This document shows, one piece after another, positions 17,008 to 27,394 of a stretch of DNA of 64,000 nt. The stretch's first letter is position 1. The number at the start of each line of letters is the position of its first letter. The stretch is from a virus, in the IMG/VR virus record IMGVR_UViG_3300020411_003820, positions 1 to 64,000 of that record; one strand, given 5' to 3'. The translations under genes and the position numbers were made by a program. Under the pieces are notes generated by a model. It was given only the letters and a program-made list of their open reading frames with translations. It was not told the DNA's origin and ran no database searches.

Positions 17008-17292
17008 CTAGCTAAGCCTCACTAAGTTCGGAGCCATGTCAGGTCGTGCTTTTTTAAATTCGTCGATTGATGCTCTTATAGAATCAGGATCGGCAGGCCC
17101 ATCGTACCATTCAGTAAATGCTGCAGCCATATCATACCTGACAATCCACTTTCTTGCAATACCAGCGTCGATACATATTTCAGTAAAGATGGCAGCGACA
17201 GCTTCAACATCAACTTCTTCTACCTCGACAAGTGTAGGGGCAGTCGAAGTTTTGATAACTAATTTATTCCAAAGTGTTTTAATCCAATTCAT
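17008..17292 (-). CDS. Hypothetical protein
   Basis: 94 aa; ATGA overlap with the upstream gene. Confidence 0.65.
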   Translation of the reverse strand: MNWIKTLWNKLVIKTSTAPTLVEVEEVDVEAVAAIFTEICIDAGIARKWIVRYDMAAAFTEWYDGPADPDSIRASIDEFKKARPDMAPNLVRLS

Positions 17293-18020
17293 TCTTTAAA
17301 AGCCCCTTTAATTTTGTCAAGCATTCCTTTCGGTTTTGATTGTGTAAGGTGAGGGTGTTGCGAATCGCACTTTCTAGCTATAAACACCTCTTTTGAATTT
17401 TCAGGCTTGTAGTTTCCGGACGCACCTAATAAATTTTTACACGCCCTCTCAGTAGGATAGTACGTTTGGCATTTTATAACTAGCGCCAACTCTTCCTTAG
17501 ATTCAGGCTTGTAGGTTCCACGTGGGGTGACTAATCTATTGCACACATCCGGGCCTGGATCGTTAGGATCAAGTGCTTCTTTTTTGAGATCGCCAAGGGG
17601 CTCAGCATATTTAAAAGGTTCTTGATCATCATCATCACCAAAGTCATACATAGTCTTTGTATCCACATCCATCGTGTTCGAAACTTTGCCACCAGTTTCA
17701 AAATCAAAAGTGCCTTTCATTCCAGGACCCATACTTCCTGCATCTGCCGGCATCTCAGTCGTGTCTGGGCTGGTTGCGGGCGAAACATCAGCAGAAGTAT
17801 TTACCGCTCCAATACCTGATGCAATGGCAGCAACTAATGCGACAGGAACACCAAACTTCTTAGCGATAGCTTTCATGGTGTTCTCGCTGATAACGTGGCC
17901 GTTAGCTATCTCTTGTTCAAGCAATGTTTTAATGCTTTGTTTTTGATTTTCGGTAAGTTCAATCTTTTCGTCCATGAAATAACGAGGGTCAATTCTTCTT
18001 GTGTTTTTACGTCTAGCCAT
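17289..18020 (-). CDS. Putative capsid-cargo protein with internal signal peptide and two Cys-pair repeats
   Basis: AGGAG RBS; LTE/LLE/ISE sites, then MKAIAKKFGVPVALVAAIASGIGAVNTSA; 2x C...G.YKPE...E.....KC. Confidence 0.7.
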   Translation of the reverse strand: MARRKNTRRIDPRYFMDEKIELTENQKQSIKTLLEQEIANGHVISENTMKAIAKKFGVPVALVAAIASGIGAVNTSADVSPATSPDTTEMPADAGSMGPGMKGTFDFETGGKVSNTMDVDTKTMYDFGDDDDQEPFKYAEPLGDLKKEALDPNDPGPDVCNRLVTPRGTYKPESKEELALVIKCQTYYPTERACKNLLGASGNYKPENSKEVFIARKCDSQHPHLTQSKPKGMLDKIKGAFKE

Positions 18021-18022
18021 TA

Positions 18023-18058
18023 TTTTGTACTCCTGTATATTTGGTTAAATAGTTGTTG
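18023..18058 (-). repeat. Repeat R2 copy A (promoter + RBS module)
   Basis: CAACAACTATTTAACCAAATATACAGGAGTACAAAA; 33/36 identical to 18677-18712. Confidence 0.9.
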
Positions 18059-18061
18059 GTT

Positions 18062-18439
18062 TCATGTTGTTAAACCATATTCGATAGCGCGGCGTTCGGG
18101 AGGCATATTCGAAGCCTCATCTAAATCAAACATAACCAGATCAGGGCGATCGCCATCAATAAAATGATTAAATAATTTTAAAAACTCAGGAAAGTCATCC
18201 CATTCCGATATTGCCACAACATCCTGTTCAGAATTTTGCTGGATTGCTTGAATTTTCGTTGAATCGTCGCCCGGCTTAGTAATATCTTCAATGTACATCT
18301 GGACATCGCGTCCTTGAAATTTAGGGCTGTTGGTTATGTCTTCAAGTTTCTGATTTACCTTGTCAATCATCGCAGCAAAATTTAAATCTTCTTCTTCTTC
18401 TTTTATATGCTTTCGCCAATTTTCAAATATTAGTTTCAT
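18062..18439 (-). CDS. FENWRK-leader cargo protein
   Basis: MKLIFENWRKHIKEEE followed by an acidic domain of unknown family. Confidence 0.75.
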   Translation of the reverse strand: MKLIFENWRKHIKEEEEDLNFAAMIDKVNQKLEDITNSPKFQGRDVQMYIEDITKPGDDSTKIQAIQQNSEQDVVAISEWDDFPEFLKLFNHFIDGDRPDLVMFDLDEASNMPPERRAIEYGLTT

Positions 18440-18442
18440 GTT
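18410..18442 (-). repeat. Repeat R1 copy 3
   Basis: AACATGAAACTAATATTTGAAAATTGGCGAAAG; 32/33 identical to 19998-20030. Confidence 0.9.
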
Positions 18443-25048: not shown

Positions 25049-25077
25049 ACTATATCACCTTAAGGCAGCGCTGTCAA
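25049..25077 (-). promoter_or_regulatory. Sigma70-type promoter
   Basis: TTGACA-17 nt-TATAGT. Confidence 0.8.
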
Positions 25078-25103
25078 GTATTTCTTTAAAAGAAATTAGC
25101 TTT

Positions 25104-26033
25104 TTACAATGATGTTATGGTCATTGACGCCCAATCTATCTCAGCAAAATATGTATAGCTTCCGTCGCCTTCAATTATTCGAGTGTCTGTCCAAGCCAGA
25201 ATTCCATCAAGATAAATATTGACTGTGACCTCATTACCGCCGTAGAAGTCAGGTGTTGAGCCTGTGTAGTCGTGAACCACAACAGTGTATACCCCACCAG
25301 TAACTGGATCTGCTATGTTGATGTTCTCTGGTCCCGTGCCCGGGATGTCATCTAAATCCAGAATGGGATTGTCTTCTGTGTAACCTGAAATACCCCAATC
25401 CATAGGAAACAAAAACTGTGCAGACTCAGTACAGTTTGAGTAGTAACAGTCTGTTCTAGTTTCAAGTGTTCCGCCGGGTGCAAGGAGGTGTAGATCCATG
25501 TCGTCTTGAAATTCAGACCAGAACATTTCAACCCATAGATTTTGATCAGGCACTGCTTCCAATGTAGTTTCACAAGGATCTGAAACTAAACCAGATTCAT
25601 TGGTCACTATAAGTCTTGCTGTGTATTCTCCTGCTAGCACAGGAGTGAAAGGACCGCGATTGGCGCCACCAAAGGGCATTGTCACTGTTGATCCTTCGGG
25701 TGCTGATATTAGCTGCCAGTCGTATTGTTCTATTCTTTCACCGGCCGGGTCAAACGAGTCGTCGCCAATCCAAGTTGCGACCTCAAAGGGCGGTGAAATA
25801 GGATCGGGTGTGACATCACATATTGCAACAGGCACAGTGGGATCTGGTTCCTCTTCGGGTTCATCCTCTGGCTGCTCTTCGGGTTCATCAACACCCGTAT
25901 CTATCGAAGGTAACTCTTCAGCATATGCTGTATCAATTTCAGGGAGTTCTGAACCTGGATCAACTGAACCAACGCCGCTAAGTTTGTAGTCTGAACACGA
26001 CAGACTAAGAAGTGTAAACAGTAAGATTCTCAT
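25104..26033 (-). CDS. Lipoprotein with PKD/Ig-like and YfaP (DUF2135)-like domains
   Basis: Lipobox LSLS-C; DDSFDPAG..I.QYDWQL..AP.GS; MFW...DMDLHL...LDLDDIPGTGPENINI...Y.V.VHDY. Confidence 0.7.
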   Translation of the reverse strand: MRILLFTLLSLSCSDYKLSGVGSVDPGSELPEIDTAYAEELPSIDTGVDEPEEQPEDEPEEEPDPTVPVAICDVTPDPISPPFEVATWIGDDSFDPAGERIEQYDWQLISAPEGSTVTMPFGGANRGPFTPVLAGEYTARLIVTNESGLVSDPCETTLEAVPDQNLWVEMFWSEFQDDMDLHLLAPGGTLETRTDCYYSNCTESAQFLFPMDWGISGYTEDNPILDLDDIPGTGPENINIADPVTGGVYTVVVHDYTGSTPDFYGGNEVTVNIYLDGILAWTDTRIIEGDGSYTYFAEIDWASMTITSL

Positions 26034-26044
26034 AAAGCCTCCAT

Positions 26045-26842
26045 TTATTTGAGAGTATTTTTTGTTTCTTGGGCTTTTTTAAATGCTGAAAAGTCGGCAT
26101 TTAATAATAAAATTGGTATTTGTTTACCGCTGGCATCGGCTGTTTGTCCAATCTTTTTAAATTTACCGTAACCAAACGAACCAAAATCTTGTATTTGTCT
26201 GTCCATGATTGAATTTAATTTTTCAGCATCCATCATACCATAATATTTCATCTTACCATCGATTCCGTATTTGCCTGTCGAAAAATCAGTGTAGGAAGAA
26301 TCAATATTGTCATATGGAACATAATAAAAAACGCCACCCGTGGCCGGATCTCGAAGAGGCTGCCCATTATCGCCAGTTGCCATTACAAGATCTGCTTGGT
26401 ATTTGCTTACAAAATTATCTGTGTCGCTAACCCGCTTCTTCTCGCCACTGTCAACTCCTAAGTCGGCGGTGCCGCGGTCAAGAGCACGCTGAACAAGTTT
26501 TTGCAACTCTTTATCTTTTAGCGCTTCAACAGCATCTCTAGCGTTTTCGGCATTTGCTAACTCTTGAGCGGCACCTGGTGTAACCCCTACATCATTAAGT
26601 ACCTGTAAATCATTACCAATTTGACTCCCAAAGGCTGCAAGCGCAATAGGAAGAATAATCTTCATGTTGCTGCCAATCGCAGACTTGAGAGTATCTAAAA
26701 CACTTTTTTCTAAAATTAAAATTTGCTCTTCGGACAAATCAAGTTGCATTTCAGTAATAACTGATCTGATTTCTTCTATAACAATCTTTTCAGATACTTC
26801 TTCTAATATAAGCTGTTTTAATTTTGATTCTGCTATGATCAT
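26045..26842 (-). CDS. Leader-bearing protein with internal hydrophobic segment
   Basis: MIIAESKLKQLILEEV...ITE...ILE, then MKIILPIALAAFG. Confidence 0.7.
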   Translation of the reverse strand: MIIAESKLKQLILEEVSEKIVIEEIRSVITEMQLDLSEEQILILEKSVLDTLKSAIGSNMKIILPIALAAFGSQIGNDLQVLNDVGVTPGAAQELANAENARDAVEALKDKELQKLVQRALDRGTADLGVDSGEKKRVSDTDNFVSKYQADLVMATGDNGQPLRDPATGGVFYYVPYDNIDSSYTDFSTGKYGIDGKMKYYGMMDAEKLNSIMDRQIQDFGSFGYGKFKKIGQTADASGKQIPILLLNADFSAFKKAQETKNTLK

Positions 26843-26848
26843 AATTTA

Positions 26849-27394
26849 TTACCGTGATACCAATTGAGGTGGTACATTTTTTGTATTCATCGAAAACTGC
26901 AACCGCTGTCCGCTTTGTGTATCAAAGACAAATGTTGTTTCCCCGCTTTTCGCGTCCGTATTTTGATTTTGAAGTCCATATTTGTTGAATACGTCCATAC
27001 GTTTAAATTTATCATCGCCAGCGGCTTCAAGTTCTGCAGCTATTTTAGATAAAGAATCCTTGGCACTGTCGACATCTGTAGGTAAACTTTTGCTAGACTT
27101 TTTATCACCCATGTCAAACCTTGGATCATCATCCATATTAAATTTAGAATCGTCAAAGTCCGCGGACATTGAAGACAGCTCTTTATCAAGAGCGGCCCAC
27201 TTATCAGCCATGGCAGGATTAGGCGCTAAAACTCCAGCAGCAGTTGTAACCAACATGCCTGCTGAAACCATTTTTTTAACCCAATTTGGCATTGCTTCTT
27301 GAAGTTGTATTTCTGTAAGCTGTATGTCGCTTGATAAAGCAGCTTCGACCTCTTCTCTGATAATCTGTTTTAATTGTGATTCAGTAATCTTCAT
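26849..27394 (-). CDS. MKIT-leader protein with internal signal peptide
   Basis: MKITESQLKQIIREEV...LTE..LQE, then AMPNWVKKMVSAGMLVTTAAGVLAPNPAMA. Confidence 0.75.
   Translation of the reverse strand: MKITESQLKQIIREEVEAALSSDIQLTEIQLQEAMPNWVKKMVSAGMLVTTAAGVLAPNPAMADKWAALDKELSSMSADFDDSKFNMDDDPRFDMGDKKSSKSLPTDVDSAKDSLSKIAAELEAAGDDKFKRMDVFNKYGLQNQNTDAKSGETTFVFDTQSGQRLQFSMNTKNVPPQLVSR

What the first reader, a model, noticed from the sequence alone, without database searches (positions are those of the whole stretch)
17289..27394. Cryptic signal peptides and membrane segments that head-protease cleavage would unmask
Seen: in 26849-27394, LQE(33) is followed by AMPNWVKKMVSAGMLVTTAAGVLAPNPAMA-D (basic, hydrophobic, A-x-A). 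In 17289-18020, ISE(46) is followed by NTMKAIAKKFGVPVALVAAIASGIGAVNTSA-D. In 26045-26842, ILE precedes MKIILPIALAAFG. 19338-20027 has a hydrophobic hairpin after IKE. Inference: two-step addressing. The acidic leader hides the export signal in the producing cell and routes the protein into the capsid. After cleavage and ejection it enters the envelope of the next host (superinfection exclusion, membrane sealing or ejection channel). Alternative: the internal Met codons are second starts.
Basis: partly seen in the sequence, partly recalled or inferred. Interest (0 to 1): 0.8.

Follow-up and report, generated by a model that had tools for sequence, protein, structure and literature searches.

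The report
Hydrophobic segments behind phage head-loading tags
Four genes of an uncultured marine T4-like phage put a swappable "load me into the head" tag and several head-protease cut motifs in front of a signal-peptide-like or membrane segment. This layout has one published precedent (Salmonella phage SPN3US gp47), but neither loading, cutting nor export has been shown here.

Summary
All quoted sequences are present at the stated coordinates. The window is a 43%-complete fragment of a roughly 195-kb uncultured phage with a T4-type portal and a gp21-family (S77) prohead protease.

The four proteins belong to a set of over 100 unrelated ORFan proteins in this clade. Each starts with one of three interchangeable leaders: MKITxSQLKQIIxEE, MKLIFENWRK or MARRKNTRRIDPRYF. 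Orthologues swap leader type but keep the hydrophobic module.

In the four proteins the T4 cleavage motif (L/I)-x-E occurs 17 times before the hydrophobic segment (7 expected) and once in the 588 residues after it. The clade's capsid-protein propeptide and scaffold show the same enrichment.

- **P_A and P_B:** a conserved (L/I)-x-E lies 8-9 residues before a basic, hydrophobic, small-x-Ala|Asp segment.
- **P_C:** a short anchor-like segment.
- **P_D:** a conserved two-helix hairpin.
- **Internal starts:** unlikely, because the Met codons have no Shine-Dalgarno sequence and those of P_B and P_C are not conserved.

Best reading (about 0.4): this is head cargo whose mature N-terminus is membrane-directed, like SPN3US gp47. 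The masking and re-export steps are untested. The main rival (0.3) is an ordinary N-in membrane protein made in the producer cell. This scan has noted the same layout on other DNA. I class it as a new variant of a known kind.

The parts
27350..27394 (-). P_A leader, type A (MKITESQLKQIIREE), containing I-R-E14
   Evidence: The leader is shared by 105 unique ORFs in related loci. E14 is nearly invariant across 75 leader proteins.
27296..27349 (-). P_A linker with two (L/I)-x-E motifs (LTE28, LQE33)
   Evidence: The L012 orthologue keeps LTE and has IDE|A at the same place.
27206..27295 (-). P_A signal-peptide-like segment: basic n-region (KK), 17-residue Ala/Gly/Thr-rich core, PNP-AMA|D
   Evidence: It is 73% identical over 45 aa in L012_10948, which has a type-B leader and a different C-terminus. 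A related EA(I/M)PxW..hydrophobic module is seen in P0064.
26849..27205 (-). P_A variable C-terminal part (118 aa) and stop codon; contains no [LI]xE
   Evidence: No Pfam or PHROG family.
17943..18020 (-). P_B leader, type C (MARRKNTRRIDPRYFMDEKIELTENQ), including LTE24
   Evidence: The same leader occurs on many unrelated ORFs in relatives.
17883..17942 (-). P_B linker with LLE35 and ISE46 (INE|G in homologues)
17790..17882 (-). P_B signal-peptide-like segment (AKK, FGVPVALVAAIASGIGAV, NTSA|D)
   Evidence: It is nearly invariant in 7 homologues whose C-termini differ.
17289..17789 (-). P_B C-terminal part with an acidic/Pro-rich spacer and two 25-residue Cys-bounded repeats; contains no [LI]xE
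   Evidence: read directly from the sequence
26708..26842 (-). P_C leader, type A variant (MIIAESKLKQLILEE), plus helical linker with 7 [LI]xE, including the conserved L-S/T-E38 and I/L-L-E45
   Evidence: hhalign gives 98% probability over the first 38 columns with the 300-aa positional analogues.
26618..26707 (-). P_C basic amphipathic stretch plus short hydrophobic segment (IILPIALAAFGSQIG)
   Evidence: The AF2 model gives a low-confidence helix here and a confident C-terminal domain at residues 133-265.
19851..20027 (-). P_D leader, type B (MKLIFENWRKFE), plus linker with IFE, IHE and IKE
   Evidence: Orthologue P0019 carries a type-C leader instead.
19689..19850 (-). P_D hydrophobic hairpin: two Ala/Ser/Thr/Gly-rich segments separated by NAGTATG, followed by a Lys-rich stretch
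   Evidence: There are 27 invariant positions from residues 60 to 115 across 8 homologues.
7568..8176 (-). Prohead protease, T4 gp21 family
   Evidence: Pfam Peptidase_S77 2.1e-28; PHROG 207 5.7e-55
5704..7599 (-). 631-aa ORF directly after the protease, with a leader-B-like NENWQKFIKE near its N-terminus and a scaffold-like C-terminal RL..LAGIK motif. Probable prohead core component.
18062..19318 (-). Three further leader-tagged ORFs without a hydrophobic segment (18062-18439 type B, 18441-18677 type A, 18674-19318 type B)
21189..21803 (-). Leader-A ORF in which LQE22|G is followed by an amphipathic hydrophobic stretch (GYLSTLFKLIDFAFA)
14557..14883 (-). Leader-A-like ORF (MKITKNDIKQAILEA)
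25104..26033 (-). Contrast case: a lipoprotein-type signal (MRILLFTLLSLSC) at the very N-terminus, with no leader
   Evidence: It shows that the phage also uses ordinary N-terminal export signals.

Best explanation
P_A, P_B, P_C and P_D are members of a large, fast-evolving set of leader-tagged phage proteins.

The proposed mechanism runs in five steps:
1. The 12-26-residue leader (three interchangeable types) acts like the T4 capsid-targeting sequence and docks the protein on the prohead core (inferred).
2. The Glu-rich helical linker behind it carries several (L/I)-x-E sites.
3. The gp21-family protease cuts at these sites inside the prohead (inferred from motif statistics only).
4. Cutting leaves a mature protein whose N-proximal part is a basic patch plus an Ala/Gly-rich hydrophobic segment. 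This segment is signal-peptide-like in P_A and P_B, anchor-like in P_C, and a hairpin in P_D.
5. The mature protein stays in the head, leaves with the DNA, and uses this segment to reach or insert into the inner membrane of the newly infected cell. The variable C-terminal domain would then sit at the envelope (inferred by analogy with SPN3US gp47).

Whether insertion is Sec/YidC-mediated or spontaneous, and what the C-terminal domains do, is unknown.
For: - The T4-type head module is present: portal (Pfam Portal_T4, 1e-74) and S77 protease (2e-28). T4 gp21 cuts after L/I-x-E, and 10-19-residue capsid-targeting sequences load unrelated proteins into the head (PMC9026906).
- Leaders are portable. 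There are 132 unique leader ORFs in 73 related loci. None of the 75 that are 100 aa or longer has a Pfam family.
- Leader types are exchanged between orthologues: A to B in the P_A family and B to C in the P_D family. Leader codons differ synonymously between paralogues, so selection acts on the peptide.
- Motif statistics for 112 non-redundant leader proteins:
  - In residues 19-70, [LI]xE occurs 110 times against 75 in shuffles (0 of 300 reach it), and [LI]xE[AGS] 29 against 16.
  - In residues 71 to the end, forward [LI]xE occurs 89 times against 128 for the reversed motif. In non-leader proteins the figures are 569 and 575 (Fisher p = 0.02).
  - In the same region [LI]xE[AGS] is 11 against 21 expected.
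- The four proteins have 17 sites before the hydrophobic segment (7.0 expected) and 1 after it.
- Calibration on known substrates: the clade's major capsid protein has 5 conserved [LI]xE in its first 62 residues (1.6 expected), and the scaffold has 14-17 (8.4 expected).
- The Glu site directly before the basic or hydrophobic part is conserved: LQE|A and IDE|A in P_A; ISE|N and INE|G in P_B; [IL]LE|K in P_C.
- In every full-length relative of the P_C superfamily the leader and the hydrophobic segment are kept together, down to below 25% identity.
- SPN3US gp47 is the precedent. Its propeptide is cut at AVE-79 and probably ALE-111, its mature fragment starts with a predicted transmembrane helix, it is an essential ejection protein, and it sits in a hypervariable slot (PMC5694885).
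- The ORF after the protease combines a leader-B-like motif with the scaffold's C-terminal motif.
Against: - There is no direct evidence that any of these proteins is in the virion, is cut, or reaches a membrane.
- No isolate of this clade exists. The nearest isolates share only 38-39% portal identity and have no proteomics in the searched literature.
- (L/I)-x-E is a short motif in Glu- and Leu-rich helices, so the real cut sites are unknown. The median distance from the last such site to the hydrophobic core is 20 residues across 19 families. 'Unmasking' is therefore exact only for P_A, P_B and one other family.
- A basic patch followed by a hydrophobic segment 45-90 residues from the N-terminus is also the normal layout of an N-in/C-out bitopic membrane protein made in the producer cell.
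- P_D's hairpin is hydrophobic enough to be taken to the membrane as it is translated.
- P_B's Cys-bounded repeats would be explained most simply by direct export to the periplasm.
- Leader proteins are not enriched for hydrophobic segments overall.
- The AF2 models of the N-terminal halves have low confidence.
Confidence: 0.4

Rival explanations
1. These are ordinary inner-membrane or exported proteins of the producing cell. The hydrophobic segment is an internal signal-anchor (P_A, P_B, P_C: N-in, C-out) or a hairpin (P_D: both ends in the cytoplasm), inserted by SRP, Sec or YidC during infection. The shared leader is a cytoplasmic N-terminal tag with some other role, such as binding a common phage or host partner. 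The proteins never enter the capsid. Possible roles are superinfection exclusion, envelope remodelling or lysis control.
For: - The positive-inside layout is present: a basic patch before the hydrophobic segment and neutral or acidic residues after it.
- P_D has a Lys-rich stretch after its second hydrophobic segment.
- P_B's C-terminus has two Cys-bounded repeats that suit an oxidising compartment.
- The overall share of proteins with a hydrophobic segment is the same in leader and non-leader proteins (15% against 12%).
- A lysis-type cluster of small membrane proteins lies next to P_B.
- Internal signal-anchors are common in bacteria (general knowledge).
Against: - It does not explain why (L/I)-x-E is concentrated before the hydrophobic segment and nearly absent after it, with forward/reverse asymmetry that non-leader proteins lack.
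- It does not explain why three unrelated leader types are interchangeable on the same protein.
- The phage uses plain N-terminal signals where it wants export, for example the lipoprotein at 25104-26033. Thirty-two of 423 non-leader proteins have an N-terminal hydrophobic segment, against 0 of 106 leader proteins.
- The hydrophobic cores of P_A and P_C are short or weak for a membrane span.
Confidence: 0.3
2. The proteins are packaged and cut as in the best explanation, but the hydrophobic segments have no membrane role. They act inside the particle, for example by docking on the inner capsid wall, self-association within an internal protein body, or shielding during passage through the tail.
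For: - The motif statistics are the same as for the best explanation.
- Ala/Gly-rich, moderately hydrophobic segments such as those of P_A and P_C are weak membrane spans.
- Nothing links the C-terminal domains to envelope functions.
Against: - The basic-patch, hydrophobic, small-x-Ala|Asp arrangement of P_A and P_B is conserved in homologues with otherwise different sequence. It is specific to export signals rather than to packing helices.
- P_D's hairpin, with 27 invariant positions from residues 60 to 115, looks like a true membrane hairpin.
Confidence: 0.15
3. Membrane tether model. The proteins sit in the producer's inner membrane, and their cytoplasmic leaders bind the prohead core while it assembles on the membrane. 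Protease cuts in the linker then release the prohead, leaving the membrane part behind.
For: - T4 proheads nucleate on the inner membrane and are released after proteolysis (PMC5694885, introduction).
- This model accounts for both the cut motifs in the linker and the positive-inside layout.
Against: - There is no precedent for such tethers.
- It does not explain the many different, variable C-terminal domains, nor why most leader proteins (90 of 106) have no hydrophobic segment.
Confidence: 0.07
4. The internal Met codons are second translation starts that give ordinary secreted proteins alongside the long forms.
For: P_A Met35 is kept in the L012 orthologue. A product starting there would be a textbook pre-protein.
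Against: - There is no Shine-Dalgarno-like sequence within 22 nt upstream of P_A M35 or M42, P_B M49 or P_C M60. The annotated starts of P_A and P_B have AGGAG.
- P_B homologues have Val, Leu or a shifted Met at that position.
- P_C homologues have Thr, Ala or Arg there.
Confidence: 0.03

Closest known systems
Salmonella giant phage SPN3US gp47 (Ali et al. 2017, Front Microbiol 8:2251, PMC5694885)
   Same: - An N-terminal propeptide is removed by a gp21-related prohead protease after x-x-Glu motifs.
- The mature fragment begins with a predicted transmembrane helix.
- The authors infer an ejected head protein that contacts the host membrane.
- The gene sits in a hypervariable slot.
   Different: - The gp47 propeptide is about 111 residues and is not a short tag shared by dozens of proteins.
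- Its cleavage motif is A/S-x-E rather than L/I-x-E.
- There is no detectable sequence similarity (no PHROG or Pfam hit).
- gp47 cleavage and virion location were shown by mass spectrometry and genetics. Here nothing is shown.
- P_A and P_B look like cleavable Sec signals rather than membrane helices.
Phage T4 internal proteins IPI, IPII, IPIII and Alt with the capsid-targeting sequence (Mullaney and Black 1996; review PMC9026906)
   Same: - A short N-terminal tag on unrelated proteins.
- The tag ends in (L/I)-x-E.
- The phage encodes a gp21-family protease.
- The cargo is variable and ORFan.
- Repeated DNA at gene starts could drive shuffling.
   Different: - The T4 cargo proteins are soluble and carry no signal-like or membrane segment.
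- T4 has one tag type and a handful of cargo genes.
- Here there are three tag types, a longer Glu-rich linker, and about a dozen tagged genes in 84 kb.
- Similarity of the tags to the T4 sequence was not tested.
Extended signal peptide regions of autotransporters and two-partner secretion proteins (own knowledge)
   Same: A conserved N-terminal extension of 20-30 residues precedes an otherwise classical Sec signal peptide, giving 'signal peptides' of 45-70 residues.
   Different: That extension occurs only on exported proteins and is part of the signal. Here 90 of 106 non-redundant leader proteins have no hydrophobic segment at all, so the leader is not an export element.
Membrane-active ejection proteins of other tailed phages (T7 gp14/15/16, P22 gp7/gp20/gp16; own knowledge)
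   Same: Proteins with hydrophobic segments are stored in the capsid and enter the host envelope at infection.
   Different: - Those belong to podoviruses and form a trans-envelope conduit.
- They are not loaded through a shared cleavable tag.
- No homology was detected.

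Membership tests
T4-type capsid-targeting propeptide cargo | A short N-terminal peptide shared by otherwise unrelated proteins of one phage | tested here: met
   There are 132 unique leader ORFs of three types in 73 related loci plus this contig. None of the 75 members of 100 aa or longer has a Pfam family.
T4-type capsid-targeting propeptide cargo | The tag ends in, or is followed by, the prohead-protease motif (L/I)-x-E, which is avoided in the mature part | tested here: met
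   E14 is nearly invariant. The motif is enriched in residues 1-70. Forward versus reverse counts are asymmetric and [LI]xE[AGS] is depleted in the rest. The clade's capsid-protein propeptide and scaffold show the same enrichment.
T4-type capsid-targeting propeptide cargo | The phage encodes a gp21-family prohead protease | tested here: met
   Pfam Peptidase_S77 2.1e-28 and PHROG 207 5.7e-55 for 7568-8176
T4-type capsid-targeting propeptide cargo | The protein is found in the virion with the tag removed | not testable with these tools
   No isolate and no proteome exist for this clade. The literature search for the nearest isolates gave no virion proteomics.
Sec-type cleavable signal peptide (signal peptidase I) | Located at the N-terminus of the translated protein | tested here: not met
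   The basic n-region starts at residue 34 (P_A), 47 (P_B) or 46 (P_C) of the full-length ORF. It would be met only after the hypothetical cleavage.
Sec-type cleavable signal peptide (signal peptidase I) | A positively charged n-region followed by an uncharged hydrophobic core of about 10-18 residues | tested here: met
   P_A: +2 and 17 residues. P_B: +3 and 18 residues. P_C: +2 and 15 residues. P_A's core is only moderately hydrophobic (KD 1.76).
Sec-type cleavable signal peptide (signal peptidase I) | Small residues at -3 and -1 after a helix breaker | tested here: inconclusive
   Met by eye and conserved in homologues for P_A (P-N-P-A-M-A|D) and P_B (N-T-S-A|D). P_C and P_D have no clear site. 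No trained predictor (SignalP) was available.
SPN3US gp47-like ejection protein | A hydrophobic or transmembrane segment at the start of the fragment left after propeptide removal | tested here: inconclusive
   The layout is present in all four proteins and in 19 non-redundant families, but the cut sites are only predicted.
SPN3US gp47-like ejection protein | Sequence or fold homology to gp47 | tested here: not met
   No PHROG or Pfam family for any of the four. Foldseek of the P_C model against PDB and BFVD gave nothing below E = 0.39.
Extended signal peptide region (autotransporter/TPS type) | The N-terminal extension occurs only together with a signal peptide | tested here: not met
   Ninety of 106 non-redundant leader proteins lack any hydrophobic segment.

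The most novel reading that the evidence does not exclude
This would be a 'package, inject, export' route. The phage loads ready-made envelope proteins into its head through a removable tag that also keeps their Sec-type signal (P_A, P_B) or anchor (the P_C superfamily) out of use in the producer cell. Head maturation trims the tag. After ejection, the newly infected cell's own Sec/YidC machinery places the proteins in its envelope within seconds of infection, before any phage gene is expressed. Possible purposes are immediate superinfection exclusion, membrane resealing or receptor masking.
Probability: 0.2. Interest if true: 0.85.

Novelty: new variant of a known kind. Interest (0 to 1): 0.55.

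Why it matters
If the reading holds, T4-like phages of the ocean carry a much larger and more varied injected proteome than T4 itself. Part of that proteome would be aimed at the host envelope rather than the cytoplasm.

It would extend the single published case (SPN3US gp47) to a modular system with three interchangeable address tags, a protease-cut linker and a membrane or export segment. Such a system could be exploited to deliver membrane or periplasmic proteins with phage particles.

It would also make a testable prediction about how phages act on the envelope before any gene is expressed. If the rival is right, the finding is only a set of N-in membrane proteins with an unexplained shared cytoplasmic tag, which is of modest interest.

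Tried and rejected
- **Family and atlas searches:** Pfam and PHROG scans of the four proteins and six other leader proteins gave nothing significant. A Pfam scan of 75 leader proteins gave nothing. The ESM Atlas lookup for P_C returned only unnamed viral clusters below 0.8.
- **Leader in isolates:** tblastn of a 30-aa leader against 50,697 phage records gave no match. Whether isolates carry these exact leaders is therefore unknown. The nearest isolates, immuto and Mel-JY01, show only loosely similar N-termini.
- **Structure:**
  - AF2 of the P_C family gave a confident C-terminal domain only, and it has no PDB or BFVD match.
  - AF2 of the P_D family was too poor to use (mean pLDDT 53).
  - The wide structural aligner was not installed.
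- **P_C and its 300-aa positional analogues:** hhalign aligned only the first 38 columns and BLAST aligned only the leader. The profile search does link them over their full length, but weakly (E = 1e-4).
- **P_A signal module:** a word-indexed search found only near-identical proteins.
- **Promoter class:** AACTATTTA occurs 7 times, all on the coding strand (1.5 expected). Six copies lie 20-48 nt upstream of gene starts: P_A, P_B, 18441-18677, 16278-16478 and two genes of unknown function next to the head and tail gene blocks. The seventh lies inside the 8201-8566 ORF, about 190 nt upstream of the protease start. The capsid gene of relatives lacks it, because it sits inside an operon, so late expression could not be established.
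- **Rejected ideas:** internal starts, and the leader as part of an extended signal peptide.
- **Not run:** complex prediction, because no binding claim rests on it, and sequencing-run searches.

Full report
**What the window is**

The window is the first 64 kb of an 84,283-base IMG/VR virus record that CheckV rates 43% complete. All genes lie on the minus strand. The record carries a T4-type head module:
- large terminase at 11943-13532;
- portal at 9952-11934 (Pfam Portal_T4, 1.2e-74);
- prohead protease at 7568-8176 (Pfam Peptidase_S77, the T4 gp21 family, 2.1e-28; PHROG 207, 5.7e-55).

The nearest isolates are Flavobacterium phage immuto and Microcystis phage Mel-JY01, at only 38-39% portal identity. 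A primase query fetched 72 related metagenomic loci. Several come from complete genomes of 187-196 kb.

The scaffold and the gp23-type capsid gene of this phage lie just beyond the left end of the contig. This follows from gene order in the complete relatives.

**The observation**

The four ORFs translate exactly as quoted.

| Protein | Coordinates | Layout |
|---|---|---|
| P_A | 26849-27394 | MKITESQLKQIIREE, linker ending LTE28 and LQE33, then AMPNWVKK-MVSAGMLVTTAAGVLA-PNPAMA followed by Asp |
| P_B | 17289-18020 | ISE46, then NTMKAIAKK-FGVPVALVAAIASGIGAV-NTSA followed by Asp |
| P_C | 26045-26842 | ILE45 is followed by a 16-residue basic amphipathic stretch before IILPIALAAFG |
| P_D | 19338-20027 | IKE39 lies about 22 residues before a two-segment hydrophobic hairpin (residues 60-113) |

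The strict 'Glu followed at once by a signal peptide' therefore holds for P_A and P_B only. The leader and linker are net acidic in P_A (-4) and P_C (-7), but not in P_B or P_D (+1 each).

**The leaders are portable modules**

The clade has three leader types:
- type A: MKITxSQLKQIIxEE;
- type B: MKLIFENWRK;
- type C: MARRKNTRRIDPRYFMDEKTxIIKEE.

A pattern census of the 73 loci plus this contig found 132 unique leader ORFs (105 A, 18 B, 9 C), or 112 after removing relatives. None of the 75 members of 100 aa or longer hits any Pfam family.

Orthologues exchange leaders. The P_A orthologue in L012 has a type-B leader, keeps the segment IQLTExQ..EAMPxW..MV..GML.TTAAGVLAPNPAMAD.W at 73% identity, and has a different C-terminus. 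The P_D orthologue P0019 has a type-C leader where the others have type B.

Leader codons differ synonymously among paralogues, so the peptide itself is under selection. Short DNA repeats upstream of several of these genes could drive the shuffling.

**Are the proteins protease substrates?**

T4 gp21 cuts after L/I-x-E, and 10-19-residue capsid-targeting sequences load unrelated proteins into the T4 head (PMC9026906). Glu14 of leader A, within I-x-E, is nearly invariant.

[LI]xE counts in the 112 non-redundant leader proteins and in non-leader proteins of the same loci:

| Set and region | Motif | Observed | Comparison |
|---|---|---|---|
| Leader proteins, residues 19-70 | [LI]xE | 110 | 75 in shuffles (0 of 300 reach it) |
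| Leader proteins, residues 19-70 | [LI]xE followed by Ala/Gly/Ser | 29 | 16 in shuffles |
| Leader proteins, residue 71 to end | [LI]xE, forward | 89 | 128 for the reversed motif |
| Leader proteins, residue 71 to end | [LI]xE[AGS] | 11 | 21 expected |
| Non-leader proteins, residue 71 to end | [LI]xE, forward | 569 | 575 for the reversed motif |

The forward/reverse difference between leader and non-leader proteins gives Fisher p = 0.02.

For the four proteins of the finding, 17 sites lie before the hydrophobic segment (7.0 expected; 0 of 5000 shuffles reach 17). One site lies in the 588 residues after it (3.45 expected; the reversed motif occurs 7 times).

As a calibration, the capsid protein of four complete relatives has five conserved [LI]xE in its first 62 residues (1.6 expected). 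The scaffold has 14-17 (8.4 expected).

This is indirect but coherent evidence for two things. The clade's protease appears to keep a T4-like specificity, and the leader proteins appear to be exposed to it, which can only happen inside a prohead.

The 631-aa ORF directly after the protease adds a weak link. It has a leader-B-like NENWQKFIKE near its N-terminus and ends in the RL..LAGIK motif that also ends the scaffold of relatives and of immuto.

**The hydrophobic segments**

They are conserved.
- **P_B:** seven homologues keep the first 110 or so residues almost unchanged. This covers the leader, IELTENQ, INE|G, AKKFGVPIALVAAIASGIGAVNTSA|D and an acidic Pro-rich spacer. Their C-termini differ.
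- **P_D:** the hairpin has 27 invariant positions from residues 60 to 115 across eight homologues and is followed by a Lys-rich stretch.
- **P_C:** it belongs to a superfamily that occupies the slot just downstream of the primase in nearly all relatives. Members share leader A, a helical linker with L-S/T-E-E-Q and [IL]-L-E, a basic patch, an Ala/Gly-rich hydrophobic stretch and a domain of about 200 residues. A profile search of 1.84 billion representatives found only 45 relatives, and every full-length one begins with the leader. One of them, P0064, has LNE|AIPRWAK followed by a hydrophobic stretch, which resembles the P_A module.

Across 19 non-redundant leader families with a hydrophobic segment:
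- mean net charge up to the last [LI]xE is -3.1;
- mean net charge between that site and the hydrophobic core is +0.6;
- mean net charge after the core is -0.7;
- the median distance from the last site to the core is 20 residues.

Leader proteins do not carry hydrophobic segments more often than other proteins of these phages (15% against 12%, p = 0.41). What differs is position. In leader proteins the segment is never N-terminal (0 of 106, against 32 of 423) and is internal four times as often (16 of 106 against 18 of 423, p = 2e-4).

The phage also has plain N-terminal export signals without a leader, such as the lipoprotein at 25104-26033.

**Internal starts**

None of the internal Met codons (P_A M35 and M42, P_B M49, P_C M60) has a Shine-Dalgarno-like sequence. 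The real starts of P_A and P_B have AGGAG. The Met is not conserved in P_B or P_C homologues. This alternative is unlikely.

**Structure**

The AF2 model of the P_C family gives low-confidence helices for residues 1-132 and a confident alpha/beta domain for residues 133-265. That domain has no match in PDB or BFVD. The P_D model is unusable. Structure therefore neither supports nor refutes a membrane role.

**Precedent**

The idea is not without precedent. In Salmonella giant phage SPN3US, gp47 is an essential head protein. Its N-terminal propeptide is cut by the gp21-related prohead protease at AVE-79 and probably at ALE-111. Its mature fragment starts with a TMHMM-predicted transmembrane helix.

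The authors infer an ejection protein that contacts the host membrane, and they note that the gene sits in a highly diverged slot (PMC5694885).

The present case differs in three ways. It uses short, shared, interchangeable tags. It belongs to a phage with a T4-type head. Two members look like cleavable Sec signals rather than membrane helices.

**Most likely mechanism**

My best reading (about 0.4) has these steps:
1. The tag docks the protein on the prohead core (inferred).
2. The protease trims the tag and linker at (L/I)-x-E sites (inferred from the statistics).
3. The mature protein, now headed by a basic patch and a hydrophobic segment, stays in the head and is ejected (inferred by analogy).
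4. It then goes to the inner membrane of the new host (inferred).

I give the full 'mask, package, inject, export' scheme about 0.2.

The main rival (0.3) is that these are ordinary N-in membrane or exported proteins of the producer cell, with a cytoplasmic tag of another function. It fits the positive-inside layout, the P_D hairpin and the Cys-bounded repeats of P_B. It does not explain the one-sided distribution of the cleavage motif or the leader exchange.

Lesser rivals are an intra-capsid role for the hydrophobic segments (0.15), a membrane tether released by the protease (0.07) and internal starts (0.03).

**Relation to earlier notes of this scan**

First-stage notes on this same genome describe the leaders, the P_A signal and the repeat-flanked gene array. 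Follow-up reports on other genomes describe shared T4-like leaders and signal peptides hidden behind them, always as untested. Those notes agree with this reading but are not independent evidence.

**Verdict**

The decisive evidence has to come from signal-peptide predictors, virion or virome proteomics, protease assays and export fusions.

Noticed in passing
window 5023-5262 (-): This 79-aa basic ORF looks like ribosomal protein S21. It sits at the same position, downstream of the prohead protease, as the gene annotated RpsU in Microcystis phage Mel-JY01.
   Followed up: partly
window 2797, 8368, 16526, 18046, 18700, 27431, 33803 (all minus strand): AACTATTTA occurs 7 times, all on the coding strand, against 1.5 expected. 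Six copies lie 20-48 nt upstream of start codons: P_A, P_B, 18441-18677, 16278-16478, 1328-2764 and 32755-33783. The seventh (8368) lies inside the 8201-8566 ORF, about 190 nt upstream of the protease start. It is a candidate promoter element of unresolved class.
   Followed up: partly
window 20024-21163 (-): A tubulin/FtsZ-family GTPase (Pfam Tubulin, 4.6e-9) with a 60-residue acidic N-terminal extension lies in the middle of the leader-gene array. Its 3' end contains the DNA repeat that precedes two leader-B genes.
   Followed up: partly
window 5704-7599 (-), and L081 in a relative: The 631-aa ORF after the protease overlaps the protease's 3' end. It carries a leader-B-like motif 10 residues in and ends with the scaffold's RL..LAGIK motif. 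In relative G001 the homologous frame has no ATG before the motif, so its start codon is unclear.
   Followed up: partly
window 17289-17600 (-), C-terminus of P_B: There are two tandem 25-residue repeats, each bounded by Cys (C-x7-G-x-YKPE-x-SKE-x6-KC). Homologues of P_B replace this part with other Lys-rich repeats.
   Followed up: no
window 15481-16834 (-): A run of four small ORFs with N-terminal or internal hydrophobic segments and coiled-coil tails looks like a lysis cassette (holin/spanin type), directly upstream of P_B's neighbours.
   Followed up: no
loci L002-L073, position about 10940 (just after the primase gene): The slot directly downstream of the primase always holds a protein with leader A, linker, basic patch and hydrophobic segment. 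The protein is 180-335 aa long and its sequence is highly divergent between relatives. It behaves as a positional core gene.
   Followed up: partly
P0044 (432 aa): One database protein joins a 145-aa leader-A protein in frame to a complete P_C-superfamily protein that has its own leader. This is either a gene-calling read-through or a natural fusion of two tagged cargo genes.
   Followed up: no
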